Virus record (IMG/VR): IMGVR_UViG_3300037323_000212
Span: 6,227 to 70,226 of that record
DNA: 64,000 nt
Strand: one strand, 5' to 3'
DNA from: a virus
In this document: one piece after another, positions 7,877 to 55,084 of the stretch
How positions within the stretch are numbered: position 1 is the stretch's first letter
Layout: each line of letters opens with the position of its first letter
Notes under the pieces: model-generated
Seen by the model: only the letters and a program-made list of their open reading frames with translations
Told to the model about the DNA's origin: nothing
The model's database searches: none
Position numbers and translations under genes: made by a program

Positions 7877-10299
7877 ATGACCATCCCTGCCCCCACCCCC
7901 TCGCCGCTGGAATGCCGATTTGCCGTCTACAGCAAATCGAAAACCGATGACACCGACATGCACCTGATCAAAGAGGCGGTGCACAACCCAGACGGCACCA
8001 TCACGCCTCACGTGCGCATGGTCAAGCAATACACCCGAAACTTCTACGTGACCAAGAAGGGCATGCAAAACCACGTTGACCGAAAGGAGTGGGAGCTTAA
8101 AAGCAACCTGACCGAGTTCAAGTGTACCCAGACCAACTTGGTCAACTCGGTGGCGCGCGCCTTTGGAAACGCAGGCTTTAGAGGCACGCTGCGCGACTTG
8201 CCCGAGTCGCGCTTCGTGTACGGCTCAGACATCACATCGACGGCGATGATCAAGCAAAGCTACAAAGACCGCTGGGACTTGCTCACGCCCTACTCCTACG
8301 CGGTGTTTGACACAGAGACCGACATGCTGCACGGCACCGACGCCATCATGATGGCCACGGTGAGTTTTAAAGACCGGGTGTTTACCGCTGTGCAAAAGAG
8401 CTTCGTCGCCGGCTACACCGACCCCATTGGGCGCATCCACGCGCTGGCTGAGAAGTACTTGGGTACAACGTTCAAAGCGCGAAACATCAAGATGGAAGTG
8501 GTCCTGGTCAACACAGAGATCGATGTCGTTCGCGCCACGATGGCCAAGTCCCACGCGTGGAAGCCCGACTTCCTAGGGGTGTGGAATTTGGACTTTGACA
8601 TGACCAAGGTCATCGAGGCGTGTGAGCGCGCCGGCATAGCACCCGAGGACTTGCTCTGTGACCCCGGCGTGCCCACTAAGTACCGAAACTTTCGCTATAA
8701 AAGGGGTCTGGCCAAGAAGGTGTCTTCCTCGGGCAAGGTGATGAGCTTTACCCCCGCGCAGCGCTGGCACACCGTGTTTTGCCCCTCGTCCTTTTACTGG
8801 ATCGATGCGATGTGCGCTTACCGCCAGGTGAGAACGGGCCAGTCCGAGGAGCCCAGCTACGCGCTGGACGCCATTTTGAACAAGGACTTGAAGATCGGCA
8901 AGCTGAAGTTCAAAGAGGCCGATGCGTACAAGGGCGCGGAGTGGCACATCTTCATGCAAAAGAACTACCCGCTGGAGTACGTCGTCTACAACCAGTTCGA
9001 CTGCATCTCCATGGAGCTGCTCGATGAGCTCAACTTGGACTTGCAGCTCTCGCTCCCCGCGTTCTCTGGGTGCTCGGATTTTAACAACTTCAACTCCCAG
9101 CCCAGGCGCTCAGTGAACGCGCTGCACTACTTTTTGCTCAAGCACGACCATGTCATTGGGAGCACGGCTTCTGAGATGACGGATGACTTGGACACGGACA
9201 CCTTGGGAATTGACAAGTGGATCAACTAACAGGTCCCCTTGCGCAGGAACGCGCAAGTGATAAGATGCTTAATTGACTGGGACACCCTGAGAGCCTCTTC
9301 ACCACAGCGCAGCGCGAAAGCGCAGACGTCACGGTTTAAAAACGAAGAGGATTGGGCAATCAGCAGCGAAGCTCCTACGTATCGTCGGGAGACGAGACAC
9401 GGAGAACGTTCAACGACTATTCCGTCAGGGAAGTAGGGGCACGAGCCCCGAAACAGCATCTGCCCTACCTCCCTCGGGACCGGGCAGTGATATAGTCTGT
9501 TCCCGAGGGAAACCACGGGCAGGTGTCATGCAGCACACCGGGCACGCTAGCAGAGCGTGCTGGACAACAAGCGTGATGTTAGACGCGCACCTCGTGACCG
9601 ACACGGGGCTGCAGCTGATCAAGGAGATACCCGGCATGCCCACAAACATCCGGGTCGATGTAGCGGATTGTACAATTGACACACCTCAATTAAGTCCGGC
9701 CGTGGCGTAATTCATGGTATAAAGTTATTTAATTGCTGGGAACTCTCGCAAAACCACTGGGCTAAATCGGCGTATGAAAATACAGACGCAAATGCTTGAA
9801 AACACAGTGGGTAGAGACAATCAGCAGCCAAGGCCCTAACCGCTTGACCACCAAGCGCACGGGCAAGGTTCAACGACTATTCCGCACACACTGCAGCGTC
9901 CCCCGACGCTGCAGTCAGGAAGTAGGGGCAAGTGCTCCGAAACAGTAACCACCCCACCAGGTAACACTGAGGGTGAAGATATAGTCTCGTCTGCATGGAG
10001 ACATGCAGCAGTCCTTGCGGTCGTGAGACCCCGAGCAAACGGGCACCACCTAACGAGTGGTGTTGAAGATATCGTTAGACGTAACCGCCAGCTACCCGAC
10101 CACCGAGAAGGTGATGAACGTGTCCAAGGAGACCACCTCCAAAGAGATCATCTCCATTGCCGGGGTCGAAGAAGACGTCCAGCGCAACCAGACCATCAAC
10201 TGGGCCGCTGGGCGCAGCAACGCCGCTGAGATTGCCAACCAGTTGTTTGGCCTGCCAACGCTGGACGGCATGCTCGCTGCGTTCTTAAAGCAGCACTAG
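7877..10299 (+). CDS. DNA polymerase B, exonuclease/N-terminal subunit (phiKZ gp82-like), spliced from 3 exons
   Basis: join(7877..9222,9572..9668,10075..10299) = 1668 nt, 555 aa. ExoI FDTETD and WNLDFD present. Splicing restores DKWIVMLDAHL and the polymerase motif-A-like VADLDVTASYP. Confidence 0.88.
9223..9571 (+). ncRNA. Group I intron 1 in DNA polymerase subunit (349 nt, no ORF)
   Basis: P AATTGACTGGGAC, Q AATCAGCAGC, R GTTCAACGACTA, S GATATAGTC. Exon end GGAT pairs with IGS GTCC (U.G); terminal G at 9571; frame restored. Confidence 0.9.
9669..10074 (+). ncRNA. Group I intron 2 in DNA polymerase subunit (406 nt, no ORF)
   Basis: P AATTGCTGGGAA, Q AATCAGCAGC, R GTTCAACGACTA, S GAAGATATAGTC. 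Exon end CGGAT pairs with IGS GTCCG; terminal G at 10074. Confidence 0.9.
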
Positions 10300-10317
10300 A
10301 CCAAAAAAATAAAAAAG

Positions 10318-10360
10318 CATATCAGCTCAGAGTCCTCAACGGTACTCTGGGCTGATATGA
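10318..10360. terminator. Stem-loop between convergent genes
   Basis: CATATCAGCTCAGAGT...ACTCTGGGCTGATATG, preceded by an A-tract. Confidence 0.65.
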
Positions 10361-10364
10361 CAGC

Positions 10365-11414
10365 TTATGTCTTGGACGCTTTTTTGTACTCAGCGGCCAG
10401 CTTCAGGTGGTATCCACCGGCGGCGAAGTTCGGGCCATTGTAAATGCGCGCAACAGTCGACCACTGCCTGGCCTGCAAAGCCTTTAGGAGCGCGCGGTCA
10501 AACTTGATGAAGGACACGACCGCTTGGAGCTGCAAGCGCTCTGAGGTCTGCATGGCCAACACAAAGGCGCTCACGGTGTCATAACCACACGCCTTGTGGT
10601 TAAAACCCATGCACTGGCCCAGGCCGTAGCTGGCTGAGCGCAGGGCGCTGTTTTTCTCAATGGCCATCGCATCGTTCAAGCGCTTGACCTCGTGCTGCCC
10701 GCCCAGGTAGCCCCCGGGCACGGGGTTGCAGATGTCTCGGTGGCTCACGCTCGTGGCCAGCGCAAACGCCTCACCGCGCGTGCGTATCAGGTCTCGGTAG
10801 AACTTGTGGCGCTCAAACAACACGGTGGTGTGCCCACTGGGCAAGAAGCCAAACTCCTTGGTCTCCACGACCAAGATGGCCTCGACCGAGGCCACATCCA
10901 CGCCCAAGGAGCCCGCCGCGTCCACGATGTCCCCAGGCATCAAAAAGCGCGCGGTGATGTGCGCGCCCAGTGCCGCTTGGGTCTTTGGGCCGTAGTAGGC
11001 CCCGCGCACGTCACTCTCTTTTACCCCTATTGAGGCTTGGTAGGTGCTGAGGGCGGCTTGCGTGGTCCTGCCAAAATCCCCATCGCACTTCATTGCCAAG
11101 CCCATCTTCTCGTTGAGGGCTCGCTGCATCAGTTTCACAGCGGGGTCTTTGCTCCCCAAGCTGTGGGTGCCCTCAACCACCAGCGCGGTGGTGCGAGAGA
11201 ACAAGGACGCCCGGGTCAGTGGGCCGTAGCAGGCACCAGCGGCGTTGGTCTCTTTAATCCCAACCGATGCTTGGTAGGCTCTTAGAGCGCCTTGGGTGAG
11301 TTTGCCAAAGACGCCGTCGGCGCTCAGTGACGTGCCCAACCTCTCGTTGAGCGCGAGTTGCATCAGTTTGACGGCGGGGTCCTTGCTTCCCAGGCCATGC
11401 GTTTTCTCGGTCAT
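10365..11414 (-). CDS. Modular endolysin: two peptidoglycan-binding domains plus an N-acetylmuramidase (DUF3380-type) domain
   Basis: Two repeats LGSKDPAVKLMQ.ALNE..G....DG.FG..TQ.AL..YQ; catalytic region AILVVET...LFERHKF...SASYGLGQCMGFNH...ARIYNGP. Start chosen at ATG 11414 after AGGAG. Confidence 0.88.
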   Translation of the reverse strand: MTEKTHGLGSKDPAVKLMQLALNERLGTSLSADGVFGKLTQGALRAYQASVGIKETNAAGACYGPLTRASLFSRTTALVVEGTHSLGSKDPAVKLMQRALNEKMGLAMKCDGDFGRTTQAALSTYQASIGVKESDVRGAYYGPKTQAALGAHITARFLMPGDIVDAAGSLGVDVASVEAILVVETKEFGFLPSGHTTVLFERHKFYRDLIRTRGEAFALATSVSHRDICNPVPGGYLGGQHEVKRLNDAMAIEKNSALRSASYGLGQCMGFNHKACGYDTVSAFVLAMQTSERLQLQAVVSFIKFDRALLKALQARQWSTVARIYNGPNFAAGGYHLKLAAEYKKASKT

Positions 11415-11736
11415 CAAATAAACTCCTGTGTTGTAGACACAGGATGTCGGCTTTGGGTTTACTGGTTCACCTGCACAAGACCAGACTCGGGCGTGTTCAA
11501 ACAAAAAAAAGAAAGCACAAATGCCTGGGCTTCGGCCCAGGCATTTATGCACATTCAAGTTACCGCATTATACCGAAAGCGGCTGCTTTGGACAGCTTTG
11601 CGTAAGCGGTGTGCGGCAAACGCGGCGCGTCTTTGGCCACAGGCCCACGCAGGCCAGAGCGCCCGTTGCTCACCAACATGTACCAGTCGTCTGGGTCGTG
11701 CTCGGCAACATGTGCCTGATTATTTTGCAGTACAGC

Positions 11737-11772
11737 ATACAGCCCAGGAAGTTTTGACTTCCTGGGCTGTAT
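11737..11772. terminator. Stem-loop terminator
   Basis: CATACAGCCCAGGAAG/CTTCCTGGGCTGTATG. A second hairpin lies at 11519-11546 (AAATGCCTGGGC-TTCG-GCCCAGGCATTT). Confidence 0.65.
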
Positions 11773-11797
11773 GAAACAGGGTAAAGACCGATTCGGT

Positions 11798-12478
11798 TTA
11801 CTTGTTAAAGAACGACAGCACCTTGCGCTTGCCCTCTTCGCTGAAGCTGAACTCCAGCGTGCGCGAGAAGTCCACTTGCTTGATCGCCACCGAGCGCCCA
11901 GCCACGGGCGCAGCCGTCGTGATCAGGTTCATGATGCGCACAAACGCTTGGCGGTCCACTGGATTGAGCGTAATCTCATCGGTGAAGCGAAAGATGTAGC
12001 GCGCATTGAACACGCCGTCCTTGTTGTCATCAACCAGCTTCAGAATGGTTGCAAACAGCAGGGGGAAGTCTTTGTCCACCGTGTTGATGGCACTTTGGAT
12101 CGTGCGAAACAGCAAGGACTGCTGGCGAGCACCGTCCACGGGCAAAATCATCTTGCCCGGCGCCATGGCCAGCATGTACGCTTTGAGCGAGTGGATCACG
12201 TTGACCGCTGCGTTGTTGCCACCGGCCTCAATCTGTGCGAGCAGCTCTTGGACGGTTGGACTGTAGACTTGGCCCGTGGCGTTCACCGCCTTTTGAGCAG
12301 CCACGACACTCACCTGCTCAGGCGTGGCGACCTTGCCCACCGGTGCGGTGGTCGAAGAGGCCACCGTGCCCGACTGGCTCGCTGGCGCAGCAGGCGCCAC
12401 CGGTGCTGGGGATGCTGGTGCTGTGCTTACAGTAGCAGCGGGGGCAGTGGGCTCTGCTTTGGTTGGGTTTTGCGACAT
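11798..12478 (-). CDS. Conserved jumbo-phage protein (phiKZ gp79-like) with Ala/Pro-rich N-terminus
   Basis: ORF from MSQNPTK; YMLAMAPGK...GARQQSLLFR motif; near the vRNAP beta' gene. Confidence 0.65.
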   Translation of the reverse strand: MSQNPTKAEPTAPAATVSTAPASPAPVAPAAPASQSGTVASSTTAPVGKVATPEQVSVVAAQKAVNATGQVYSPTVQELLAQIEAGGNNAAVNVIHSLKAYMLAMAPGKMILPVDGARQQSLLFRTIQSAINTVDKDFPLLFATILKLVDDNKDGVFNARYIFRFTDEITLNPVDRQAFVRIMNLITTAAPVAGRSVAIKQVDFSRTLEFSFSEEGKRKVLSFFNK

Positions 12479-12559: not shown

Positions 12560-13963
12560 TTAAACAGGTGGGGTTGGCTGCACGTCTTTGAACACGTAGC
12601 TGCCGCACACGCCGTCCAAGAAACCCATCGCGTAGCGAATTTTAGCATCAGTGATGCAAAGCCGCTTGCCAGCAATGGCGCGACTGGGGTAGACGGTTAC
12701 TTCGCCAGTCTCCCGGTTGGTGACTTCAACTGGGAGGCTGCCGATCCATTTGGGCTTGTAGCGCTCTGGCAGGTTTGCCACGCGGTCTGCCGTAGGCGCG
12801 TCGTCGTAGACAAAGATCCAGCCCGCGTACGGCTTTGCCTTGTGGTGAACGACGTGGTGTTGCAAGCCCGTGTAGCTGAGCTTTAGCGCATCTGCCATTT
12901 GGTCTAATGTGTTTGCGGTGATCATGATGCTGGTGCTCTCACTCATTGCCAACCAAATGCCAAAGGTAGAGTCCCAAGAAGACTCACTGTCCTCTTCGCG
13001 CTCTAAGGTGGGCCAAGGCACGGGGTTGTCGTATTTGAACACCTGCCAGTCTTTGGTGACCCGGCCCACCCGGGGGCTGTTCAGGTGCTTGTTGAGCCGC
13101 TTCTCGCTGATCTTCAATGTCAATGCCAGCTCTTTGGCCGTGCTGTACTTTGCCACAGCACCAGTGCGCACATCGCGCGTGAGCACTGCTTGGTGGGAGG
13201 TCAGGCCCGTTTGAATGGCGTGCACGTTGTTCTCCTTTGTGCTCACCCACTCCAAGTTGCCCAGCCAGTTGTGGTGTTTGACCCCATCGATGTGGTTAAC
13301 CACCAACTCGTGCAGTGGGACATCGGCGTGGCGGGTGGGCTTGGCAACAAAGATCTTTGCCAAAAGGCGGTGAACGTAATTGCTCACGTACTTGCCACCA
13401 ATGCGAATGGCCACCAGCGTGTAAGTATCTGTCTTGAAGACCGGTACTTCTTTGTCAGCAGCCAAATTGAAAAACACCCCGTCTCGGTTGACCACCACCG
13501 GCAAGTCAGACTCTGGCATGAAGAAGTAGCCTGGCTTTGCGGCGCACTCCACCGCATGGGGATAGTAGCCATCAAACACTTGGCTGAAATCGGGGGTGCT
13601 GAATTTGACCTTGTTCTCGGTGAGCGCTTGAAGGGTCTTCAGTGTTTTTGCGTACTGGCGCCCTCGCCACTCCAAGTTGCTCAGGGTGTGGTTTGCTGGG
13701 TTGGCGTCTTTGTGAAAGACCCGAGCAGTTGCCACCGTGAGCGGTGGCTCAATCGGGATGAACGTACAGGCGAGCAAGTAGGCCACCGACAAGCTGCGCT
13801 GGGTTTTGCCCAGCGCCACGTTGGTCATGGTTTTGTCGTTTTTGTCCGAGACCCACTGCGCGCCGACTCGCGCGTCTCGGATGCGTCGCACGCATCCGTT
13901 AGGCGCTATCTCGTAGTCGGGAAACGTCGGGATCTGGGTGAAGGCTAGGGGTGAGGTGGTCAT
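12560..13963 (-). CDS. Free-standing HNH homing endonuclease with two HNH-like motifs and NUMOD/IENR-like DNA-binding repeats
   Basis: N-terminal IPTFPDYEIAPNG; HKDANPANHTLSNLEW and VHRLLA...VNHIDGVKHHNWLGNLEWVSTKENNVHA; C-terminal TGEVTVYPSRAIA repeat. No intron elements seen on either side. Confidence 0.88.
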   Translation of the reverse strand: MTTSPLAFTQIPTFPDYEIAPNGCVRRIRDARVGAQWVSDKNDKTMTNVALGKTQRSLSVAYLLACTFIPIEPPLTVATARVFHKDANPANHTLSNLEWRGRQYAKTLKTLQALTENKVKFSTPDFSQVFDGYYPHAVECAAKPGYFFMPESDLPVVVNRDGVFFNLAADKEVPVFKTDTYTLVAIRIGGKYVSNYVHRLLAKIFVAKPTRHADVPLHELVVNHIDGVKHHNWLGNLEWVSTKENNVHAIQTGLTSHQAVLTRDVRTGAVAKYSTAKELALTLKISEKRLNKHLNSPRVGRVTKDWQVFKYDNPVPWPTLEREEDSESSWDSTFGIWLAMSESTSIMITANTLDQMADALKLSYTGLQHHVVHHKAKPYAGWIFVYDDAPTADRVANLPERYKPKWIGSLPVEVTNRETGEVTVYPSRAIAGKRLCITDAKIRYAMGFLDGVCGSYVFKDVQPTPPV

Positions 13964-15604: not shown

Positions 15605-16513
15605 TTAGAAGCCACCTGGGGAGGAGGAGGTGGCGGCCAGTCCGATTCGTGCTGTGCTCAGTGCCGTGCCCGGTGCCACCGCGTTGCTTGCATACGTGTA
15701 GCAGTCGGTGGCAGCGATGACAGCGTTGCCCGTGTGCCCACCCCTAAACACCCCGAGCGTTCTGTTGCCGGTGGCTGCCAACTGGTACCGTGCAATTCCC
15801 AGCGAAGTACCAGCAGCTCTTGCGTTACTTGCGTACGTGTAGAGCTCGGTGACAGCGGTGCTAGCACTGTCCGTGTACCCACCCCCAAACACCCCGAGTG
15901 TGCTGTTGCCCGTGGCCGCCAGAGAACGCCGTGCTGTGCCCAGGACCGTGCCCGCTGTTCTCGCGTTTCTCGCGTACGTGTAGAGCTCGGTGACAGCGGT
16001 GTTGGTGGTAGTGTACCCACCCCCAAACACCCCCAGCGTGCTGTTGCCCGTGGCAGCCAGATAGGCCCGTGCTGTGCCCAATGCCGTGCCCGCTGCCACG
16101 GCGTTGTTCGCGTACGTGTAGAGATCGGTGACAGCGGTGCTGGTGGGAGCAGCCCCACCCCCAAACACCCCGAGTGTGCTGTTGCCCGCAGCAGCCAAAC
16201 CGTGCCGTGCTGTGCCCAGTACAGTGCCAGCTACTCTCGCGTTACTCGCGTACGTGTAGCGGTCGGTGACAGCGGTGATAGCACTGTCCGTGTGCCCACC
16301 CCCAAACACCCCGAGCGTTCTGTTGCCGGTGGCTGCCAACTGGTACCGTGCTGTGCCCAGCGCCGTGCCCGCTGTTCTCGCGTTGCTCGCGTACGTGTAG
16401 CGTTCTGTGGTAGCGGTGATAGCACTGGTAGTGACCCCGCCCCCAAACAACGCAAATCCCGAGACATTACCCAGCGCCGCTGAGCGACCACTCATCAACA
16501 AAAATTCCAACAT
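15605..16513 (-). CDS. Kelch-like six-repeat beta-propeller protein, copy 1
   Basis: Six 46-47-aa repeats GT.LGTAR..LAATGNSTLGVFGGG.....TAVT.RYTYASN; the GG and Y pattern is Kelch-like. Confidence 0.85.
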   Translation of the reverse strand: MLEFLLMSGRSAALGNVSGFALFGGGVTTSAITATTERYTYASNARTAGTALGTARYQLAATGNRTLGVFGGGHTDSAITAVTDRYTYASNARVAGTVLGTARHGLAAAGNSTLGVFGGGAAPTSTAVTDLYTYANNAVAAGTALGTARAYLAATGNSTLGVFGGGYTTTNTAVTELYTYARNARTAGTVLGTARRSLAATGNSTLGVFGGGYTDSASTAVTELYTYASNARAAGTSLGIARYQLAATGNRTLGVFRGGHTGNAVIAATDCYTYASNAVAPGTALSTARIGLAATSSSPGGF

Positions 16514-16592
16514 GGGTTTCTTCTCCAAAGTTTAAAAACAACAACACCAAAACGCCAAAGCGAATTGACCCAGTGGGTCACACCATTTCGAC

Positions 16593-20169: not shown

Positions 20170-20312
20170 CCTCAAAAAAGCACCATACACCCCCAGCGCC
20201 TGTAAGAGCGCTGGGGGGTGTATGGTGCAAATTGGTATGAGGGGCAGCTTCGGTTGACGTGGGTCAATCTTGTGCAGCCTTGTTTGTTTTTAAACTTTGG
20301 ATAAGAAACACC

Positions 20313-21218
20313 ATGTTGGAATTTTTGTTGATAAGTGGTCGCTCAGCGGCGCTGGGTAATGTCTCGGGATTTGCGCTGTTTGGGGGTGGGCGCGCTGCCA
20401 CCAGCACCGCTGTCACCGACCGCTACACGTACGCGAGCCACACGGTGGCAGCGGGTACCGCACTGGGCACGGGACGGTACAGTTTGGCTGCCACGGGCAA
20501 CAGCACACTCGGGGTGTTTGGTGGCGGGCACACGGGCAGCGCTATCACCGCTGTCACCGACCGCTACACGTACGCGAGCCACGCGAGAACAGCGGGCACG
20601 TCATTGGGCACAGCACGGAACGCTTTGGCTGCCACGGGCAACAGCACACTCGGGGTGTTTGGGGGTGGGGCTGCTGCCACCAACACCGCTGTCACCGAGC
20701 GCTACACGTACGCGAGCCACGCGGTGGCGGCGGGCACGTCACTGGGCACAGCACGGCACGCTCTAACTGCCACGGGCAACAGCACGCTGGGGCTGTTTGG
20801 CGGTGGGCGCGCTGCCACCAGCACCGCTGTCACCGACCGCTACACGTACGCGAGCCACGCGGTGGCAGCGGGCACGGCATTGGGCACAGCACGGTACTAT
20901 TTGGCTGCCACGGGCAACAGCACACTCGGGGTGTTTGGGGGTGGGTACACGGACAGCGTTTTCACCGCTGTCACCGACCGCTACACGTACGCGAGCAACT
21001 CGACAGTGGCTGGCACGTCACTGGGCACGGCTCGATCTGATCTGGCTGCCACGGGCAACAGCACACTCGGGGTGTTTGGGGGTGGATGGACTGGCAGCGC
21101 TAACACCGCTGTCACCGACCGCTACACGTACGCGAGCAACACGGTGGCAGCGGGCACGGCACTGATCACGGCACGGCACCGTTTGGCTGCCTCCTCCTCC
21201 TCCCCAGGTGGCTTCTAA
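20313..21218 (+). CDS. Kelch-like six-repeat beta-propeller protein, copy 2
   Basis: Same MLEFLL.SGRSAALGNVSGFALFGGG start, six repeats and SSSPGGF end as copy 1; flanked by hairpins at 20180-20228 and 21262-21303. Confidence 0.85.
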   Translation: MLEFLLISGRSAALGNVSGFALFGGGRAATSTAVTDRYTYASHTVAAGTALGTGRYSLAATGNSTLGVFGGGHTGSAITAVTDRYTYASHARTAGTSLGTARNALAATGNSTLGVFGGGAAATNTAVTERYTYASHAVAAGTSLGTARHALTATGNSTLGLFGGGRAATSTAVTDRYTYASHAVAAGTALGTARYYLAATGNSTLGVFGGGYTDSVFTAVTDRYTYASNSTVAGTSLGTARSDLAATGNSTLGVFGGGWTGSANTAVTDRYTYASNTVAAGTALITARHRLAASSSSPGGF

Positions 21219-22994: not shown

Positions 22995-25679
22995 TTAAAG
23001 GGTGCTTTGACCCAGTACCTCGTAGGGCATCAGCACCGCGTCCATGATGTGGTCGGGGCGGTTTTTGTTGCAAAAGTTGCTGGCTGAGGTAAACGCCACC
23101 AAGTGACCTTGGTAGCCCATTGTGGCCGACATGCTGCGGCACTCCAAGATCTTTCGCATGACACCCACGCCTGACTCCGTCCAGGGCTTGGGCAAGCTGT
23201 AGTCGCCCTTGGTGGCAGACACCACCATCGAGCTGTACAAGATCACCTCCAGAATAGCCAAGTTGATGCTCATTCGGTGGTTGACCAAGTCGTAGAACTC
23301 AATCAGCATGGAGCCTGGGTGCACAACCTCGCTTCGGGTCTCCAACTCATCGACCGTGGCCTCCAGCATGGCGGCGATTTCCGATGTGTTCAACACCGCG
23401 CGTTAAGCGGTGCCCGTTTGCTCGAGGTCTCACGACCGGGAGTACTGCTGCAGGGTTTCCCTGCATGTCCAGACTATATCTTCACCCGTCTCGTTAGAGC
23501 GAGGGTGCTTCCTGTTTCGACTCACTTGAGTCTACTGACCCCACGGTCATAGTCGTTGAACCTTTCCCATGCCTTTCGGTTTAGGGACTTGGCTGCTAAA
23601 GGGGACCTTAGGTCCCACGGTTGCCCATTGTAACATCCACTCTTTGTTAGACTGTCGACGCCTGCTTTCGCAACGCCTGTAGTAGAGCAGCTTTAGGGGT
23701 TTCCAGCAGTTAAAGAAGTTACACTGCCGCATTTCGGCGGCAGGAAGCATGATTACAGTAACGTTAAGTTCTCTTTCAATTCCCAATCCCCTAATGGAAG
23801 ACTGTTTTCAATCCTAGACTTAACTATGTGGTACGACGTATTAAAGGTTGACATAACCGCCTCCAATGAAGGAAACATCATCGTCTCGCCAGTTATTGTT
23901 AAGTCGCTAGGGGTTCCATTGCTTTTGCAAAGTTGGGAATTGAGAGAAACGATATAGTTGTGGTTTCCAGGGATTTTTTTGAACATGTCAATCCTTTAAG
24001 AGTTACTCCCACTATATCTCAAAACATCACAATAATTCTTTACTTTGGTGCTGGGACATGTTAAAGTGGCGCATGGGCAGCACCAAAATGGGCTGGGTGT
24101 AGTCCCAGCCCTCCATGTCAAACTCGTAGTTGTTCTCCTTTGTCACCGTCCAGCCCACCTCCTTGATGTGTTTGAGCAGCCGGTGGGTCATGCTCGCTTT
24201 GCGCTTGTTGACCTGCACCGTGAGCGGCTCCAGCCTGTCTTCCTTGTCTCCGCCCACAAACAGATACACCTCATCGAACTCACTGATGCGAGCCAAGTTC
24301 AGGCTGCTCACGTCATCGACGACTTTTAGGTCCGCCAAGCCCAGCACCTGGTCTGCTTGGACGATCAGGCGCACGCGCTTTTTCTTAAGCGACTCGTGCA
24401 AGCAGTACGCGTTGCCGTTGCCCGCCACCGTCAGGTACTTCTTGGCGTTGCTGTCGAGCGTAATGCCCACGACCGTTGAGCTGCCAATAAAGTGCTTGGT
24501 CGACAAGATGATCTGGCCCAGCGCAGACGTCATGGCCACGCACGTGATGTGTCCCAAGTTGGAGTTGACCGGCACAGCTTCACTCGCTTGCCCGAAGCAC
24601 ACCTCACAGATGCCGTAAGGGTCGGGGTGCGCGCACCCCGCCACAACACTGCGCAGCTTGATCGTCTTGCCCAAGAGGTGCGTGTCGTCTTCGCTTACGA
24701 TTTTAAGGGTGTCTGTCTCCTCATCCAAGTAGTACTTGCCCGCGATGTTTTTCAAGTCACTGTCACCCACCTTGGCACCCGACTCGTCACAGCGCAGCCC
24801 GCGCACGTTCCACAGCAAATACTCCTTGCTCCCGCAGTCCCCCAGGTGCAAGTTGCGAACGTTTTGACACACGAGCTGCTGGCGCCGTGAGAAGTACTCG
24901 GACTGCTGCAGGGGCTCCGTTGAGTTGATCAGTGCGATGGCGGCTGTGCGCGACTCCAGCATGGAGTCGTACAAACTGCGCAGGCCCTGGATGAAGCCGC
25001 GCTTGACAGGCTGCTTGAACAGCTCTGAGTCGATGTCGGTTAAAAACCCCCTGGTCGCCAAGCAGTTCAGCGCCTGAGCGGGACGAGCCAGTCCAGAGCG
25101 AATGGTCTTCACCAGGGAGTTGCCGGGCAGCTGGTCGTCCTCTGAGATCAGCTGCAAAATAGCGTCACTGACCGAGGAGATGCCTTTCTCGGTGGGCACC
25201 AGGGCGGCAAAAGCCGCCTTCACGCGGGGGTGGGTGGAGATTTGGATAAAGTCCATAATATCCAAACTCGTCACGTACGCCTCCAGGCGGTACGAGAGGT
25301 CGTTGTAGATCGTGTTGGTGATCTCATACGACATGCGACTCAGCACATCGAGCAGCTCGGTGCGGTTGGCGCACTGGTGTTTGTAGGTGTCGTAGACGCT
25401 CAGCCTGGCGTTGTTGATCAACTCCAGGTGGGTGCCAACGCCTGAGCGCCCCTCTTTGATGATGCTTTTGACGTGATGGCGCATCAGCAAGGGCGCCTGT
25501 GGGTACGCCCGGTGGTAGTCCCAAGCGTACGAGGAGTAGAGTGTCTCCTTGTCGTTGGTTGCGAATTCGCCGTCATCCATCACGAGGGCAAAGTTGCTCT
25601 GTGGCAACTTTGCCCACAGCTGCTCTGTGGTGAAGGCCAGGAGCGCGCGCGCGGGAATGCGTTGCAAGGTGGTGATCAA
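22995..25679 (-). CDS. Non-virion RNA polymerase beta' C-terminal subunit (phiKZ gp74-like), spliced from 2 exons
   Basis: complement(join(22995..23381,24042..25679)) = 2025 nt. SEYFSRRQQL, GDCGS, GICEVCFG and QIILSTKH motifs; splice restores HFNMSQHQSEIAAMLE. TTG start after AGGA. Confidence 0.85.
23382..24041 (-). ncRNA. Group I intron in nvRNAP gp74-like gene (660 nt) carrying an endonuclease remnant
   Basis: Minus strand: AACTGCTGGAAA (P), GTTCAACGACTA (R), GAAGATATAGTC (S). Exon end CAAAGT pairs with IGS GTTTTG; terminal G at 23382. Confidence 0.85.
23753..23986 (-). pseudogene. Internally deleted homing endonuclease remnant inside the intron
   Basis: AT-rich 77-aa ORF after AAGGA. MFKKIPGNHNYIVSLN resembles HNH-HEG N-termini and ITGETMMFPSLEAV resembles an IENR-like C-terminal repeat; no HNH motif. 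Confidence 0.6.
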
Positions 25680-25737: not shown

Positions 25738-28343
25738 TTACTGAGTCACGTGCCCGAGCCCGCGCACCGTGTAGTTCACATTGGGCTTGTACGCCTCGTA
25801 GCGAAACCGAAAGCCACTCACACTCAAGAAGTGGTGGCACAAGGACACGGGCTTGGAGCCGCCCAGTGGAGTGAGCCTTCGGTCAATCAGCCTGGGTATG
25901 TTGCACGGCTTGTTGCTTACCAAGATGGTCCTCACAATGCTCTTGTGGGTCTTGGGGTTGTTGTTGCGGTCCATCAACTCCGCCACAAAGAGCGGGCCCA
26001 CGTAAGACACGTAGATGCGCACCTCTGCCTCACCCGCTCCTCGAACGGGCTGGGGTCGGTAGGGCTTGGAGTACTTATCAGCCTTGGTCACAGGTGCCAG
26101 CACGCCAAAGTGCTGCAGCTTGCCCGAGGACACGGCACTCCAGTCGTCTCCTGTTTTCTCCAGCAAGATGAAGTACATGCCCGCGATGCGCACCTTGTCT
26201 TTGGTCACCACGCGCGCGCCTGAGTTGCCCACGTAGCTCACCGGCCCCCACAGGGGCTGGTAGTGCTGCTCGAGCTGCAGCACAATGTCCTCGGACTCGG
26301 GTTGGTTGTTGGTGGGCAGGAAAATCGTAATCCCTCTCTCTACGATGTGACTCAGGTACTCAATGGGTTCTTCTCGGATGTTCTCCGGGGTGAACCAGTT
26401 GTGCATCCGAGGCGACAAAATGGCGTAGTAGCCCATCAGGTAGTCCCAGGCCTGGCTCACCAGCACGGGAGACAGGTTTTGCAGGTGCGTGAGCGCCTTG
26501 TGTGCGCGCATGCTGGTGGAAATGCTCAGCGTTGCGCACAGGCGCTTGTAGGTGTCTCGGCTGCACGCGTTGTAGTACTGCTCGTACAGGCGGCCCAAGT
26601 TCATGCGACCAATCGTTGAGTTCGGGTCGAACACAACGTCAGCTCGGTTGCCGTGCTCATCGATGGGCATTTGGTCCTCATCGACGACTTGACAGATCAC
26701 GGCTTTCCTGTTGTCCAGTGAGTTCTGCTAACTCACCCGGTGTGCTGATTGACACCCGCCTGTGGCTTTCCCACAGGAGCAGACTATATCTTCATCCCCG
26801 GTTGTTGCGTCTAAGCAACTCGCGGTAGGATGCTTCCCATTTCGGGGCTCATGCCCCTACACCGTGGTAAGCGGTTAGTCGTTGAACCTTACCCGTGCGC
26901 GCTGTGTATCACTGCGCGCGTGCGGGTCTTGGCTGCGGATTACCCACATCTTTATCTTTGTTACCGTACCTGAATGATTGGTTCAGCCGCCAAAAGGTTT
27001 CCCAGTTTGGTTTGGTAGATAAAGCGCTAGAGGATTTTCCCGTCAGTTAAAGAAGTTTGTCTTTGGCCATTACTGGCCAAAGAGGCTGGCTTAAGTGAGT
27101 GCTTGGGCGCCGGTGCGAGGTGAGTCGCTCGGCACAAAGTCTCCACTCAATTTCAACCACCATGCAGGTCAGTGAGCTTAAAGCCCGTGCCTGGTATTAC
27201 GTCGTACTCAATGATGAACTCCACCCAGTAGTCATCGAGTGGGGTCTTGCGGTACATTTTGCTGACGCCTTGGCCCGTGGCCAACTCGCTCACAACCGAC
27301 TGGGCTTCTACCACCAAACGGTGAAACTCAGGCGTTATTTCCAGCGCCTCTCCGCGCTGGCGGTGCAAGTCCGTCCAGATCTTCAAGATGCGCTCAAAGT
27401 ACACCCGACGCGCGTCGTCGTACTTCTGGGACTGCTCGTCCATGTGATGCCCAGCGAAGTTGCGCCTGTTTAGGCCATGGTGAATCTTGATGTCCACGAC
27501 CCGCCCGCCCGGGCCGTTGGCGTAGAGGGTCGTGTCAAACGCAAAGTCCACCTCACTCAAGTCGTGCACGCCTTGCTCGACAACGGCCAGCTCCAGCGGG
27601 TCGTAAGAGCGGGTTGCCATCAGCAACCCGTCGTCTCGAATGATTTGGCCGATGTCTGGATAGGCCTTGTAGTTGATGAAATTGCCCTGCTCGTCTTTGT
27701 CGCCATACAAGTTGAGCGCCAGCTTCTTGCTCCCCCACTCCGAGATGCGTGTCTCGTAGGTGCGAAAGCCCATCTTGGGCAAGAAGTTGCGGTTCACCAG
27801 CACGCCGTCCTCGGACGTGGCAGGGAGTGACATGAACGCCACGTTGCCTTGCAAGCCGTACTTGTAGTCGCCCTCATCGCTGATGGAGGGTGACTCCAGC
27901 AGCACGGAGTCCTTGGCCAGCTTAGCGCCCACCGCCACCTTGGACAGGTCTTTGCCCGCCACGTACTTAAAGCCAAAATACTGGTGATTGCTGCAGTGGT
28001 CGGTGAGGCTCACCATGCCCACGACTTTGGTGTCCACGTCCTCGTAGATGACAACCGTTTGGGGATTGACCTCGATGCGATCTGGCCCACCCGTGTTGGC
28101 GTAGCGCTCAACCAAGTGCAGAACTTCTGCATCCACCGGGATTTTCACGTTGAACGTGTACTCACCGAACTTTCGCTCCATGCCGGTTTGAAACCGCCGC
28201 GCGGTCGAGTGGTTCAAGGTGAGCATCTGGCCCAGATGGTTTGACATCATGTGGGTGCGCGACGCGGTGTTGTGCTCCAACCAGGGATTCAAACCACACA
28301 GACCCAAGAGGTACGGGTTTAGTTGATTTTCGTTGTCTGACAT
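25738..28343 (-). CDS. Non-virion RNA polymerase beta C-terminal subunit (phiKZ gp71-73-like), spliced from 2 exons
   Basis: complement(join(25738..26706,27156..28343)) = 2157 nt. SEDG motif; splice restores GFKLTDLHGGKAVIC (equivalent of GDKxxGRHGNKGV); RMNLGRLYE; GAGEAEVR. Confidence 0.9.
26707..27155 (-). ncRNA. Group I intron in nvRNAP beta gene (449 nt, no ORF)
   Basis: Minus strand: AACTGACGGGAAA (P), AATCCGCAGC (Q), GTTCAACGACTA (R), GAAGATATAGTC (S). Exon ends GGT; terminal G at 26707. Confidence 0.9.
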
Positions 28344-52897: not shown

Positions 52898-53531
52898 TCT
52901 CCCACTCGATGATTCGTATGTCTCCCGCCTTCTCGATGATCAGTTGATTTTGGTTCAATTTTAGGTAGTGCAGGTGCATGTTGTCGTCGTTTAAGAACAG
53001 CATGATGTCTCGGCTGATCTCTCGGTACGCGTTGTCCAAGAGTTCTACCAGTTCTTGGAAATCTGACTCGCTGATGCCAGGCACCAGCTGGGTGAGCAGT
53101 TTGTCCGAGCAACTGTGTCGGTGTTTGCGGTAGCGCAAAAACGCATCGAGCTGCTCACCGGCGAGTATCTCCACGATCTTCAGTCCCCGGTAGGGCAAAA
53201 AGGAGTTGTTGCTCAGGTACTTGGCCTTGTTCATCATAAACAGTTTGGGGACCACCCGTTTGTCAAACTGATCGTACACCGATTGGCTAACAGTGTTTAG
53301 GTCTTGCACGGGCACCCTGCCCAGTGCTTGGTCGGTGCGCACGTAGTACGCGTGGCCCGCTCGCATGACTGGCTCCAAGCGGTTCATCAGGTACACGCCC
53401 TTGGGCGCGGGCAAGAGGTGGTCTGCGCACAGCAGCTCAATGTGAGCAGCACAGCTCTCAGCGTTCAGCTGCAAACGCCCCTGCAGGGGCGAGTCGGTGA
53501 ACTTGGCATACAGGTCGGTGGACATGGGCAT
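52869..53531 (-). CDS. Conserved hypothetical protein (phiKZ gp42-like region)
   Basis: GVYLMNRLEPV and IIEKAGDIRIIEWE motifs; downstream of phuZ. Confidence 0.6.
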   Translation of the reverse strand: MPMSTDLYAKFTDSPLQGRLQLNAESCAAHIELLCADHLLPAPKGVYLMNRLEPVMRAGHAYYVRTDQALGRVPVQDLNTVSQSVYDQFDKRVVPKLFMMNKAKYLSNNSFLPYRGLKIVEILAGEQLDAFLRYRKHRHSCSDKLLTQLVPGISESDFQELVELLDNAYREISRDIMLFLNDDNMHLHYLKLNQNQLIIEKAGDIRIIEWESEHGHEYRS

Positions 53532-53665
53532 AGGCTTGTTTTAAGAATAATCGGGCTGCTTTGTTTGAAAAAAGAACGTGTACAGCAAAAATCCTCACGC
53601 CCTTCTCAAAATATGAAGCGTGAGGATTTTTTAGATGCACAGCGAATTAAGCCCTGTTGTGTGCC

Positions 53666-55084
53666 TTACAACACCAAGCCGATGGCGGTGGCCGTGTCGT
53701 CTTTGCCCAAGATGGAGGTGCGAGCGATCTGGGAGGCAAAGCTGGCATCGACCTCTTTGAGCGTTGTGGTAAGCGCGTTGGAGGCGCGCTGCACAAAGTC
53801 ACTGCTGATCGTGAAGTGCAAAGGCTCCTCAGAGATCATCTGCAAGCTCCCTGGGGTGCCCACCCGCCACGCAGCAGGCGCGTAGCCCACGCACTGGTAG
53901 GCCGGTGTGCTGTTCAGTCGGGTGTTCATGTCTTGGAGTGCCAGCGTGGCCACTGAGACGACGGTACCCACCTTGTCCAGCTCGTGCTGGTCCATCACGA
54001 AGTTGAGCGACGACAGCTGGGCGGGGCCGCCCGAGAACTTCAGGTACTCCAGCCAGTTCTTGATGTCTGCGGTATCAAGCTCTTCGTTTTGTCCGGAGAA
54101 CAAGCCCAGCAGCATGGTGAGCGCGTACTTCACTTGCTTGTTCACCTCGAAGCGCGACTTGTCGCGCGTGTTCTCCACGTAGTGCATCACCACGGGTGAG
54201 TTGCGCACGTTGGCAATGCCCTCGTAGCTCTTTAAGGTCTTGATGGTGTTCTCAATCTCGATGCGGGTGTCCGTAGAACCCACCACCACGACCACCACGT
54301 TTTCTCCCCGGGCTTTGAGCTCGGACACCAGCACTGGGCCGATCACGGAACCACTCGTTATGTTCGAATAAGTGCGTTAGGCTTATCCCGCGCCATTACG
54401 CGCAGCTGCAACTTTCACTGCAGACCAGACTATATCTTCATCTTGACAGGCCGCCACTGCTGCGCTGTTAAGACACTCTCCATTTCGAGGCACTTGCCCC
54501 TACACCGTGGTAAACGGTTAGTCGTTGAACCTTCTCCGTGCCTGCTTGAGGGTTAGGAGCTTGGATGCTGATTGCCCAATCTTTGTACTTTTCAAACCAC
54601 TCCATCGGACAATGGAGTCTCTTCGAGAAGAGTCGCTTTGCCTTTCGGCTCGCAGTGGTAACAAAGCTCTAAGGGGATTCCAGCAGTTAAAAGAGATTCA
54701 CTGCAGTGTCACCACTGCAGCGGGCTATCCCATCGTCCCTGAGGGACGATGGGGTTAACCACCCGAGGCGGTGTGCACCACGACGTTGAACATGGTGGGC
54801 TTGAACTTTTGCAAAATGCCCAGCACGTTCTTGGAGATGGCCTCGTAGTTGGCCGAGCGCACTTTGCCCGAGCCATCGATGTCGTTGAACAGGTAGATCG
54901 CCTCTTCGGGCAACTTCTTGTTGTGCAAGTTGGAGCGACTCGTGTCGATGTAGCACGGCACCATTGAGGCGAATCCCACGTCGCTTTGGTTGCGCAGGCT
55001 CTCCATGTCGGCTACGATGTTGACCCCGCCGCCCCCGGCGGCGTACACGTTAACTTGGGCGCGGGTGATGTTGGATGCGGTCAT
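53666..55084 (-). CDS. phuZ: Phage tubulin PhuZ, spliced from 2 exons
   Basis: complement(join(53666..54355,54758..55084)) = 1017 nt, 338 aa. YAAGGGGVNI, IDTSRSN, DGSGKVR, restored HTASGGSGSVIGP, ELDTADI, and a PhuZ-type C-terminal tail ending GLVL. Confidence 0.92.
54356..54757 (-). ncRNA. Group I intron in phuZ (402 nt, no ORF)
   Basis: Minus strand: AACTGCTGGAA (P), AATCAGCATC (Q), GTTCAACGACTA (R), GAAGATATAGTC (S). Exon end GGT pairs with GCC; terminal G at 54356. Confidence 0.9.

What the first reader, a model, noticed from the sequence alone, without database searches (positions are those of the whole stretch)
9223..54757. Eight endonuclease-free group I introns with shared peripheral modules and biased target sites: possible intragenomic spread
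Seen: 8 introns in 5 essential genes, 7 with no ORF. Three introns in unrelated genes (9223, 26707, 40320) share a 3' module AGCACACCGGG-stem-TAGCAGA-stem'-CTGGACAA(C/T)A(A/G)G with covarying stems (CACGC/GCGTG, TGAGT/ACTCA, TCGAT/ATCGA). All carry a related hairpin after R (for example GGGGCACGAGCCCCGAAA, GGGGCAAGTGCTCCGAAA), typical of subgroup IA P7 extensions. Five of eight 5' exons end in GAT, two in GGTGGT and one in AAAGT. Inference: a related ribozyme family colonised new sites by guide-directed reverse splicing or with endonucleases in trans. Interrupting the most conserved motifs could also shield them from rival phages' homing endonucleases, as in the known PhiPA3 gp210 versus phiKZ interference.
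Basis: partly seen in the sequence, partly recalled or inferred. Interest (0 to 1): 0.8.

Follow-up and report, generated by a model that had tools for sequence, protein, structure and literature searches.

The report
Eight endonuclease-less introns in jumbo phage
A fragment of a nucleus-forming jumbo phage carries eight self-splicing group I introns without endonuclease genes, set inside the catalytic motifs of its DNA polymerase, RNA polymerase and tubulin genes; they belong to an intron family already widespread in such phages, so the load is unusual but the kind is known.

Summary
Rfam finds exactly eight group I introns. Splicing at U|...G| junctions restores five open reading frames colinear with intronless homologues of Burkholderia phage FLC9. 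Seven introns hold no sense ORF of 50 aa or more. The shared 3' module, the P7.2 hairpin and the GAT/GGTGGT/AAAGT exon ends are all present.

Both 3' tail types, the GUC(C) guide with a GAU exon end, and the GAT/GGT bias recur in introns of PhiPA3, phiKZ-like, Klebsiella, Aeromonas, Xanthomonas and Serratia jumbo phages. At least three sites (I4, I5, I6) are occupied elsewhere, some by introns with HNH genes, and two more lie 1 or 6 nt from occupied positions. The NADFDGD motif is an intron hot spot in 19 of 80 uncultivated relatives. Monophyly of the eight introns is rejected or nearly so, and pairwise identity is only 70-80%. This argues against a recent intragenomic burst.

Two points favour some exchange within the genome or lineage. 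The 3' halves and tails cluster by genome, and three sites (DNA polymerase I1, gp74-like I3, PhuZ I8) were not seen elsewhere.

I read this as a new member of a known kind, with moderate interest.

The parts
9223..9571 (+). Intron I1 (349 nt) in the DNA polymerase gene, between codons of DKWI|VML. The 5' exon ends in TGGAT and the guide is GTCC. Class A 3' tail.
   Evidence: Rfam 67.0 bits; junction scan against FLC9 polymerase; tail pattern.
9572..9668 (+). DNA polymerase exon 2 (97 nt), lying between I1 and I2.
   Evidence: Colinear with FLC9 residues 473-504.
9669..10074 (+). Intron I2 (406 nt) in the DNA polymerase gene, inside VAD|LDVTASYP. The 5' exon ends in GCGGAT and the guide is GTCCG. 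Extended class B tail.
   Evidence: Rfam 84.6 bits; best junction score 148; tail.
12560..13963 (-). Free-standing HNH homing-endonuclease gene (467 aa). It lies outside any intron and FLC9 has no homologue of it.
   Evidence: phrog_59 E 9.8e-34 and phrog_959 E 1.7e-26; Pfam NUMOD1 23.5 bits, HNH_3 19.1 bits, which is below its cut-off; similar to the intron-borne HNH ORFs of 2050HW, PA7/fnug and PhiPA3 at E 1e-13 to 1e-7; no FLC9 hit.
23382..24041 (-). Intron I3 (660 nt) in the phiKZ gp74-like RNA polymerase gene, at SQHQS|EIAAM. The 5' exon ends in CAAAGT. Extended class B tail.
   Evidence: Rfam 53.8 bits; junction scan.
23756..23986 (-). 77-aa ORF in the 5' part of I3, probably the remnant of an HNH endonuclease gene.
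   Evidence: No Pfam or PHROG hit. Its first 19 residues align with the first 19 residues of the HNH ORF in the PhiPA3 DnaB intron (score 52; 3 of 500 shuffles reach it). The ribozyme of that intron is I3's closest relative.
26707..27155 (-). Intron I4 (449 nt) in the phiKZ gp71-73-like RNA polymerase beta gene, at DLHGG|KAVIC. The 5' exon ends in GGTGGT. Class A tail.
   Evidence: Rfam 66.8 bits; junction scan; same site occupied in PA7, fnug, PhiPA3 and phiKp_32.
39950..40307 (-). Intron I5 (358 nt) after FDGD| of the beta' NADFDGD motif. The 5' exon ends in GGTGAT.
   Evidence: Rfam 64.5 bits; junctions; same site occupied in PA7, fnug and PS119XW.
40308..40319 (-). 12-nt micro-exon TTCGATGGTGAT, coding FDGD.
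40320..40721 (-). Intron I6 (402 nt) after NAD|. The 5' exon ends in GCTGAT. Class A tail.
   Evidence: Rfam 58.6 bits; junctions; Aeromonas phage PS1 has an intron at the same position.
40722..40732 (-). 11-nt micro-exon TCAACGCTGAT, coding (F)NAD.
40733..41091 (-). Intron I7 (359 nt) inside the codon that precedes NADFDGD (KG T|TC). The 5' exon ends in AAGGAT and the guide is GTCC. Extended class B tail.
   Evidence: Rfam 83.6 bits; junctions.
54356..54757 (-). Intron I8 (402 nt) in the PhuZ tubulin gene, inside the glycine-rich nucleotide-binding loop HTASGG|SGS. The 5' exon ends in GGTGGT. Class B tail.
   Evidence: Rfam 72.7 bits; junction scan score 104; Pfam TubZ_C_2 and phrog_4733 on the exons.

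Best explanation
The window holds eight self-splicing group I introns of the phage type that has P7.1/P7.2 and P9.1/P9.2 extensions. By recall this is subgroup IA2-like.

How each intron works (inferred from anatomy): the last exon base, U, pairs with G of a short internal guide. The guide is GUC(C) for exons ending in GAU and GCC for exons ending in GGU. An external guanosine attacks at that U. The terminal G of the intron then takes its place and the exons are joined. This restores the DNA polymerase, the beta subunit, the two beta' parts of the non-virion RNA polymerase, and PhuZ.

Where they come from (comparative, shown): the introns are not a private family of this genome. They are drawn from a pool of related introns that circulates among nucleus-forming jumbo phages and sits preferentially after T-ending Asp and Gly codons of catalytic motifs.

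How they got here (inferred): some arrived, or were inherited, at recurrent hot-spot sites (I4, I5, I6, and nearly I7 and I2). Others sit at sites not seen elsewhere (I1, I3, I8) and must have moved ectopically, to places where the conserved guide can still pair. Their endonuclease genes were later lost; I3 keeps a stub. The 3' domains of the copies in this genome have probably exchanged sequence by recombination.

Present state (inferred): without their own endonucleases the introns are immobile unless an enzyme acts in trans. The free-standing HNH gene at 12560-13963 is a candidate. By splitting the target sequences, the introns would make these genes immune to the intron endonucleases of rival phages.
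For: SHOWN
- Eight Rfam matches above threshold.
- Spliced frames are open and colinear with FLC9, which has no RF00028 match.
- All eight introns have the P7.2 hairpin.
- The two hairpins of the class A tail are supported by covariation across 9 introns from 5 phages: 98% of cells paired, 8 of 12 pairs with compensatory change, 0 of 500 shuffles as high.
- Family-wide features: class A tails occur in PhiPA3, phiKp_32 (3 introns), PS1 (2), LucasX and AgentSmith. Class B tails occur in fnug, PhiPA3 (3 introns), 2050HW and PA7.
- External 5' exon ends are again GAT (PA7/fnug/PS119XW, PhiPA3 polymerase, 2050HW, AgentSmith; RTH11 and LucasX by eye) or GGT.
- Shared sites: I4 = PA7, fnug, PhiPA3 and phiKp_32. 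I5 = PA7, fnug and PS119XW, where the intron is 1,524 nt and holds an HNH ORF. I6 = PS1. I7 is 1 nt from the LucasX position. I2 is 6 nt from the PhiPA3 position.
- Hot spot: 19 of 80 IMG/VR gp55-like loci have intron hits at or after the motif. The two nearest relatives (58% and 53% aa identity) carry three introns each, at RN|P, NA|D and FDG|D.
- Endonuclease loss: the N-terminus of ORF77 matches the N-terminus of the PhiPA3 DnaB-intron HNH ORF. That intron is I3's best DNA match, 80.5% over 151 nt and 125 bits.
- No burst: internal similarity is 68-95% over short segments, best 96 bits.
- 3' clustering.

INFERRED: splicing activity, ectopic movement, recombination between copies, action of an endonuclease in trans, and immunity.
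Against: - No RNA data: no RNA run is listed for this sequence, so splicing is not shown.
- The core alignment has only 241 columns and no node joining window introns exceeds 71% support. The placement of individual introns is therefore weak. The whole-core test of window monophyly is only borderline (p-AU 0.052).
- The external sample is 26 introns from 11 isolated phages plus IMG/VR loci of a single gene. The closest sequenced relative is only about 50-58% identical in protein. Clustering of the 3' halves by genome could therefore reflect lineage history that the sample cannot resolve, rather than recombination.
- 'Not seen elsewhere' for I1, I3 and I8 rests on 60 sampled rows out of 297, 311 and 210 records.
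- The junction scans required T before and G at the end of each intron, so those two features are partly built in.
- The guide of I3 is uncertain.
- Only 26% of the genome is held.
Confidence: 0.6

Rival explanations
1. One reading: one ribozyme lineage multiplied inside this genome, colonising new sites by guide-directed reverse splicing (RNA insertion, reverse transcription, recombination) or with endonucleases supplied in trans.
For: - Five introns share GUC(C)/GAU, and two share GCC/GGU.
- Tails and 3' halves cluster by genome.
- The TAGCAGA loop variant and the GGTCGTGAGACC hairpin were found in no other phage intron: 0 true hits in IMG/VR scans and 0 among 16 external tails.
- Three sites are unseen elsewhere.
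- The PhiPA3 polymerase intron sits 6 nt away from I2, behind another GGAT. The nearest relatives have introns one codon away from I5 and I6. Both fit placement limited by guide pairing.
- A free-standing HNH gene is present.
Against: - Monophyly of the eight is rejected in both halves of the core (p-AU 0.0078 and 0.0044).
- 5' halves have external nearest neighbours in 7 of 8 introns.
- Identities are only 68-95% over short segments. The tail stems differ at all five positions while loops and flanks are kept, which points to old copies.
- The guide, the tails and the site bias are family-wide.
- No RVT_1 match in the 70 kb held, though 74% of the genome is missing.
Confidence: 0.2
2. Purely site-faithful history: each intron was acquired by ordinary endonuclease-driven homing at its present site, from a phage with the same site occupied. 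It was then inherited vertically and lost its endonuclease gene (the homing cycle). No ectopic moves and no exchange between copies occurred.
For: - Sites I4, I5 and I6 are shared with other phages, and I4 shares its tail type with the same-site PhiPA3 and phiKp_32 introns.
- The PA7 intron at the I5 site holds an HNH ORF.
- I3 keeps an endonuclease stub.
- Contigs of a second sample carry I6 and the I7 junction without any difference (run X2), so the introns are stable in the population.
Against: - Same-site introns do not form a clade: gp71-73 site monophyly is rejected at p-AU 2.5e-5.
- I5's core is not closest to the PA7 same-site intron.
- I3's closest relative sits in a DnaB gene, and I1's in the gp55-like gene.
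- No intron was seen at the I1, I3 or I8 sites in the sampled records.
- The nearest relatives have their introns one codon away, not at the same positions.
Confidence: 0.15
3. The intervening sequences are decayed, non-splicing relics, and the five genes are pseudogenes or are expressed as split polypeptides.
For: Passages of PMC10914365 report that long-read transcriptomes gave no evidence of splicing for the predicted phiKZ introns under the conditions tested. No RNA data exist for this contig.
Against: - All eight score above the curated Rfam threshold over the whole model, positions 1-253.
- All paired elements I checked are intact and show compensatory change.
- Exons of 11 and 12 nt that code parts of NADFDGD cannot work as separate polypeptides.
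- Every spliced frame is open and colinear with FLC9.
Confidence: 0.03

Closest known systems
PhiPA3 and phiKZ-type introns in chimallivirus RNA polymerase, DNA polymerase and DnaB genes. This includes the PhiPA3 gp210 HNH intron (Birkholz et al. 2024, PMC11620839; passages read) and the predicted phiKZ gp56/gp72/gp179 introns (named in passages of PMC10914365).
   Same: - Same ribozyme family: RF00028, P7.1/P7.2, and class A or class B tails.
- Same host genes.
- Identical sites for I4 (HGG|K) and I5 (FDGD|Q).
- Same GAU/GUC and GGU/GCC pairing.
   Different: - Many of those introns carry HNH genes. The PA7/fnug intron at FDGD|Q is 1,524 nt, fnug's at RN|P is 1,244 nt and 2050HW's is 1,371 nt. 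None of the eight here does.
- The isolates I scanned hold 0-4 RF00028 matches per whole genome. This contig holds 8 in about a quarter of a genome.
Intron-rich Bacillus jumbo phages of the genus Takahashivirus (AR9/PBS1-like): vB_BspM_Internexus and vB_BpuM-BpSp.
   Same: - Many short group I introns in essential genes, including runs of introns separated by short exons.
- Internexus has 21 matches at E <= 0.001, with four in a row at 596-1942. BpSp has 12.
   Different: - Their introns form a separate clade in my tree.
- The hosts are Gram-positive.
- These phages are not nucleus-forming by my recall.
Staphylococcus phage Twort orf142, with three group I introns in one gene (Landthaler and Shub 1999). 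Recalled; only seen in the reference lists.
   Same: Three self-splicing introns of the same subgroup in one phage gene, mostly without ORFs.
   Different: Here all three lie within 24 coding nucleotides of a single catalytic motif, with exons of 11 and 12 nt. I did not compare the sequences.
Collaborative homing: a free-standing endonuclease targets the insertion site of an ORF-less intron (cyanophage psbA and T3-like examples, as reviewed in PMC3984707; passages read).
   Same: ORF-less introns together with a free-standing HNH gene of the same family as the intron-borne enzymes, in one genome.
   Different: No evidence that the 12560-13963 enzyme recognises any of the eight insertion sites. 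It lies 2.3 kb from the polymerase gene, not next to a target.
Proposed reverse-splicing spread of nuclear rDNA group I introns (Bhattacharya et al. 2005, PMC1299323; abstract seen in the listing).
   Same: Related introns at different sites whose only common feature is a short match to the internal guide.
   Different: Here the targets are protein-coding phage genes, no reverse transcriptase was found, and DNA-level routes explain the data as well.

Membership tests
Group I intron (Rfam RF00028) | Sequence and secondary structure match the covariance model above the curated gathering score. | tested here: met
   8 of 8, at 53.8-84.6 bits against 50, covering model positions 1-253.
Group I intron (Rfam RF00028) | The 5' exon ends in U, paired with G of an internal guide (P1); the intron ends in G. 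| tested here: met
   U and terminal G in 8 of 8, although the scan demanded them. A guide directly 5' of P2 can be read in 7 of 8: GTCC, GTCCG, GTC, GTC, GTCC, GCC(A), GCC. I3 is uncertain.
Group I intron (Rfam RF00028) | Removal restores a continuous host reading frame. | tested here: met
   Five spliced genes are open and colinear with intronless FLC9 homologues.
Group I intron (Rfam RF00028) | Self-splicing with guanosine in vitro or in vivo. | not testable with these tools
   No RNA run is listed for this sequence.
Subgroup IA2-like phage introns (definition recalled) | Two extra hairpins, P7.1 and P7.2, between P7 and the 3' strand of P3, plus P9.1/P9.2 after P9. | tested here: met
   Both hairpins can be read in 8 of 8, with different paired sequences. 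P9.1/P9.2 of the class A tail are supported by covariation. No comparison was made with a curated subgroup library.
Mobile group I intron (intron plus its own homing endonuclease gene) | A homing endonuclease ORF inside the intron. | tested here: not met
   No sense ORF of 50 aa or more in 7 of 8. The I3 ORFs have no family hit, and ORF77 looks like a stub.
Collaborative homing pair | A free-standing endonuclease gene in the same genome. | tested here: met
   467-aa HNH protein, phrog_59 E 9.8e-34. No GIY-YIG match in the contig.
Collaborative homing pair | The endonuclease cuts the intron-less allele at the intron insertion site. | not testable with these tools
   Needs a cleavage assay.
Reverse-splicing transposition | Related introns at unrelated sites that share only a match to the guide. 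| tested here: met
   GAU/GUC(C) at five window sites and at several external sites. The same pattern is expected if DNA-level insertions are filtered for ability to splice.
Reverse-splicing transposition | A reverse transcriptase is available. | tested here: inconclusive
   No PF00078 match in the 70,226 bases held, which are 26% of the genome by CheckV. The host is unknown.

The most novel reading that the evidence does not exclude
In this phage lineage, introns without endonuclease genes spread to new T-ending Asp and Gly codons of catalytic motifs. This includes the first intron seen in a phage tubulin gene. The only constraint on placement was that a conserved 3-5 nt guide can pair, whether by reverse splicing or by DNA insertion filtered for splicing. 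The copies then homogenised their 3' domains by recombination within the genome. They are kept because each one destroys the target of a rival phage's intron endonuclease. On this reading the eight or more 'plugs' form a standing immunity array in intron-mediated interference competition between nucleus-forming phages.
Probability: 0.2. Interest if true: 0.7.

Novelty: new member of a known kind. Interest (0 to 1): 0.45.

Why it matters
Group I introns in jumbo-phage polymerase genes have recently been shown to act as weapons through their endonucleases (PMC11620839, passages read).

This contig shows the other side of that contest. It is a chimallivirus in which at least eight conserved motifs are occupied by introns that have lost the weapon but still split the target. 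These motifs include the Mg-binding NADFDGD of beta' (split three times), the polymerase motif VAD|LD and the glycine-rich loop of PhuZ.

The comparative data also show that one 27-nt stretch of the beta' gene has been entered at six or more different positions in different phages, always behind a T-ending codon. This makes it a natural system for asking how group I introns choose new sites, a question for which the reviews I read cite only circumstantial rDNA evidence (PMC3984707).

Practically, gene callers will mis-annotate all five genes of this phage as fragments.

Tried and rejected
- Megablast of 7800-12000 against phage isolates found no match.
- The search for related loci with polymerase exon 1 in IMG/VR found no relative.
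- Exact scans of IMG/VR for the class A and extended class B tails gave 0 hits each. These patterns demanded this genome's own loop letters, so they could not see the family-wide forms that I found later by reading tails.
- A relaxed class A scan of IMG/VR gave 5 hits. All lie in coding sequence with no ribozyme upstream, so they are chance matches.
- The search for related loci with the 529-aa protein of 31744-33333 in metagenome contigs found no relative.
None of the 80 loci returned has an intron core nearby. The pattern was too short for that collection, so this tells nothing.
- Sequencing runs: no RNA holder is listed.
- Laying contigs of four DNA runs showed no intron-less allele. Contigs cannot show rare variants, and parts without cover say nothing.
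I replaced it by reading the frames and by one-intron-at-a-time scans.
- Alignment A2 of the P7.1/P7.2 region was spoiled by two badly chosen external stretches and I did not use it. The hairpins were read directly.
- Pfam on the ten large exons gave only TubZ_C_2. PHROGs named the genes.
- I considered that GGAC in the class A tail pairs with the GTCC guide. I rejected this because I4 has the same tail but a GCC guide.
- I considered that the similarity of I8's end to I2's 'ACGAGTGG' marks a shared tail. I rejected it because in I8 those letters are partly exon.
- The second gap in the PhiPA3 polymerase match, and the two-piece polymerase matches of phiKZ-like phages (excess 156-171 nt), were not examined.
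- Supplementary files of papers were not opened. Those of PMC11620839 and PMC10914365 may list intron positions that bear on the 'not seen elsewhere' statements.

Full report
WHAT THE WINDOW IS. The window is 64 kb of a 70,226-base IMG/VR contig that CheckV rates 26% complete. Its genes are syntenic with Burkholderia phage FLC9, the closest isolate. The DNA polymerase is 50.6% identical in protein. It encodes a PhuZ tubulin and the split multisubunit RNA polymerase typical of nucleus-forming jumbo phages. One subunit gene matches PHIKZ074 and another lies in the position of PHIKZ055.

THE OBSERVATION. Rfam finds eight group I introns and nothing else. I fixed the junctions by scanning every T|...G| pair near each match and scoring the spliced translation against the intronless FLC9 protein. 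For the three clustered introns I read the frames and then varied one intron at a time. The chosen junctions were the best in each scan (191 against 186, 179 and 188).

- The introns are I1 9223-9571 and I2 9669-10074 (+), and I3 23382-24041, I4 26707-27155, I5 39950-40307, I6 40320-40721, I7 40733-41091 and I8 54356-54757 (-).
- All five spliced genes are open.
- The insertion points lie in conserved motifs:
  - VAD|LDVTASYP of the polymerase (I2)
  - DLHGG|KAV of the beta subunit (I4)
  - KG(T|TC) NAD|FDGD|Q of beta' (I7, I6, I5, leaving exons of 11 and 12 nt)
  - HTASGG|SGS of PhuZ (I8)
- Only I3 has sense ORFs of 50 aa or more, and neither hits a family.
- All eight introns have GTAG-hairpin-GAAA after P7.
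- The exon ends are GAT five times, GGTGGT twice and AAAGT once.

The only correction is that I2 begins 9 nt later than the Rfam match suggests.

ANATOMY. In seven introns a short guide sits directly 5' of P2 and pairs with the exon end: GGAT/GTCC (I1, I7), CGGAT/GTCCG (I2), GAT/GTC (I5, I6) and GGT/GCC (I4, I8). In I4, I5, I6 and I8 a hairpin is inserted between the splice site and the guide.

After P9 there are two kinds of tail.
- Class A (I1, I4, I6) has a hairpin GGTGT...ACACC, then a second hairpin with a variable stem, then CTGGACAAYARG.
- Class B (I2, I3, I7, I8, and more loosely I5) ends in a hairpin with a YTAACGM-like loop followed by TGAAGATATCG-like letters. I2, I3 and I7 share an extra GGTCGTGAGACC hairpin.

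ARE THESE FEATURES PRIVATE TO THIS GENOME? No. I collected RF00028 matches from 17 phage records.
- FLC9, RP12, Ea35-70 and SA002 have 0.
- RTH11, PS119XW and AgentSmith have 1.
- PA7, LucasX and 2050HW have 2.
- fnug, PS1 and HHBS8_1 have 3.
- PhiPA3 and phiKp_32 have 4.
- The Bacillus phages BpSp and Internexus have 12 and 21.

Reading the flanks of the 26 introns from the non-Takahashivirus phages and fixing junctions for 12 of 13 attempted gave three results.
- Class A tails occur in PhiPA3, phiKp_32, PS1, LucasX and AgentSmith. Class B tails occur in fnug, PhiPA3, 2050HW and PA7.
- An alignment of nine class A tails supports both hairpins: 98% of cells paired, 8 of 12 pairs with compensatory change, and 0 of 500 shuffles as high, with slid controls at 26-54%.
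- The external exon ends are again GAT or GGT, with matching guides. Examples are GGAGAT|..GGTCTCC in PA7, CTGGAT|..GTCCC in PhiPA3 and GACGGT|..GCCGTC in 2050HW and HHBS8_1.

What is private to the window is the TAGCAGA loop and the extended class B hairpin. Neither appears in the 16 external tails or in IMG/VR scans.

SITES.
- The I4 site is occupied in PA7, fnug, PhiPA3 and phiKp_32. The PhiPA3 and phiKp_32 introns there have class A tails like I4.
- The I5 site is occupied in PA7, fnug and PS119XW by an intron of 1,524 nt that holds an HNH ORF.
- The I6 site is occupied in PS1.
- LucasX has an intron 1 nt from I7.
- PhiPA3 has a polymerase intron with a class B tail 6 nt downstream of I2, behind another GGAT.
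- Among 80 IMG/VR loci of the gp55-like gene, 19 have intron hits next to the motif and 58 have the motif intact.
- The two nearest relatives (58% and 53% aa identity) each have three introns, at RN|P, NA|D and FDG|D. The last two are one codon away from I6 and I5. One of these introns is followed by an ORF with an HNH-type N-terminus.
- Another locus, L247, has four hits.
- So at least six positions within 27 nt, plus RN|P upstream, have been entered in different phages.

Evidence that some sites are unoccupied elsewhere comes from samples only.
- In a spread of 60 of 210 PhuZ records, every match is one unbroken piece across the motif.
- In 60 of 311 records of the gp74-like gene, all matches are one piece, and 48 of them cover the I3 site.
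- In 60 of 297 polymerase records, only Viktualia has an intron-sized excess. PhiPA3's polymerase intron is known.

RELATEDNESS.
- Between window introns the best local matches are 96, 93, 88 and 86 bits, at 68-95% identity over short segments (provisional bounds).
- Against all phage isolates the best matches are:
  - I3, 125 bits to the PhiPA3 DnaB intron
  - I1, 120 bits to the PA7 gp55-like intron
  - I4, 102 bits to AgentSmith
  - I8, 91 bits to the PhiPA3 DnaB intron
  - I2, 87 bits in a single piece to phiKZ-like phages
  - I7, 87 bits to LucasX
  - I5, 82 bits to Klebsiella phages
- A maximum-likelihood tree of 56 cores (241 columns) mixes window and external chimallivirus introns, with support of 71% or less. 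The Bacillus phage introns form their own clade.

Approximately unbiased (AU) tests:

| Hypothesis tested | Data | delta lnL | p-AU |
|---|---|---|---|
| Eight window introns monophyletic | full core, 56 introns | 48.2 | 0.052 (p-KH 0.036) |
| Same-site gp71-73 introns monophyletic | full core, 56 introns | 95.1 | 2.5e-5 |
| Class A carriers monophyletic | full core, 56 introns | 28.4 | 0.169 (not rejected) |
| Eight window introns monophyletic | 5' half, 32 distinct non-Bacillus introns | 51.1 | 0.0078 |
| Eight window introns monophyletic | 3' half, 32 distinct non-Bacillus introns | 34.7 | 0.0044 |

There is nevertheless a pattern. The nearest neighbour is external for 7 of 8 introns in the 5' half, but another window intron for 7 of 8 in the 3' half. 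In the 3'-half tree all window introns but I3 lie in one part of the tree (no support values). Tails follow the same rule. The cores therefore follow neither genome nor site, while the 3' domains lean towards the genome.

ENDONUCLEASES.
- A 467-aa HNH protein is encoded at 12560-13963, outside any intron. FLC9 has no counterpart.
- It is related to the HNH ORFs that sit inside the external introns.
- No GIY-YIG or reverse-transcriptase match exists in the contig.
- The 77-aa ORF of I3 begins like the HNH ORF of the PhiPA3 DnaB intron, N-terminus to N-terminus (3 of 500 shuffles reach the score). It sits in the same place, upstream of the ribozyme core. I read it as a stub left by deletion.

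POPULATION DATA. No RNA run is listed. Contigs of a second DNA sample match the inside of I6 and span the I7 5' junction without a difference. In the likely source sample two other contigs of equal depth carry intron-like pieces, so the complete genome probably has more than eight introns.

CONCLUSION. The thing is real, and it is an unusually heavy load for a chimallivirus: 8 in a quarter of a genome, against 0-4 per genome in 15 scanned isolates. A triple split of NADFDGD and an intron in PhuZ are its most striking points. The ribozymes, their modules, their guide and their site preference all belong to a known and widespread family.

- Multi-intron clusters at the same motif exist in the nearest uncultivated relatives.
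- Much heavier loads exist in Bacillus jumbo phages.
- The data argue against a recent intragenomic burst and equally against purely site-faithful homing.
- They fit a long history of homing at hot spots, occasional ectopic moves limited by guide pairing, loss of endonuclease genes, and some exchange between the copies' 3' domains.

Noticed in passing
window 12560-13963 (-): A free-standing HNH homing-endonuclease gene (467 aa; phrog_59, NUMOD1). It is absent from the syntenic FLC9 region and related to the intron-borne HNH ORFs of other jumbo phages.
   Followed up: partly
window 15605-16528 (-) and 20259-21218 (+): Two ORFs without an FLC9 homologue both match phrog_19111 (E 2e-29 and 2e-30). 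One has a weak Kelch_3 hit. They look like a pair of paralogues on opposite strands.
   Followed up: no
contig bases 3-4373, upstream of the window: Three consecutive ORFs of 468, 486 and 489 aa on the minus strand with no FLC9 homologue. They were not annotated.
   Followed up: no
run X1, records 2 and 7: Two other contigs (8.9 and 15.6 kb) at the same depth as the phage carry pieces like I5's P9 joined to an I3-like tail, and like I7. The complete genome probably holds further introns of the same local type.
   Followed up: no
Bacillus phage Internexus, record positions 596-1942 (loci L064, L072, L076, L086): Four RF00028 matches in a row separated by about 70-130 nt, and 21 matches in the whole genome. 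BpSp has 12.
   Followed up: partly
L051/L046 (Aeromonas phage PS1, record 48240-48924): Two introns separated by a 9-nt exon, TTCGACGGT (FDG), in the same beta' motif.
   Followed up: partly
L013 (PhiPA3 DNA polymerase), locus about 2240-2568: A second gap of about 330 nt in the protein match at residues 338-340, with no Rfam match. It may be an undetected intron or an insertion. phiKZ-like polymerases also match in two pieces, with about 160-170 extra nt.
   Followed up: no
L247 (IMG/VR contig, 4791-6092): Four separate intron hits after the gp55-like gene of an uncultivated phage, the largest cluster seen at this motif.
   Followed up: no
window 1-64000 compared with FLC9 loci L032-L034 then L018: The contig is colinear with the last 55 kb and then the first 20 kb of the FLC9 record, so it runs across that record's arbitrary ends.
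   Followed up: no
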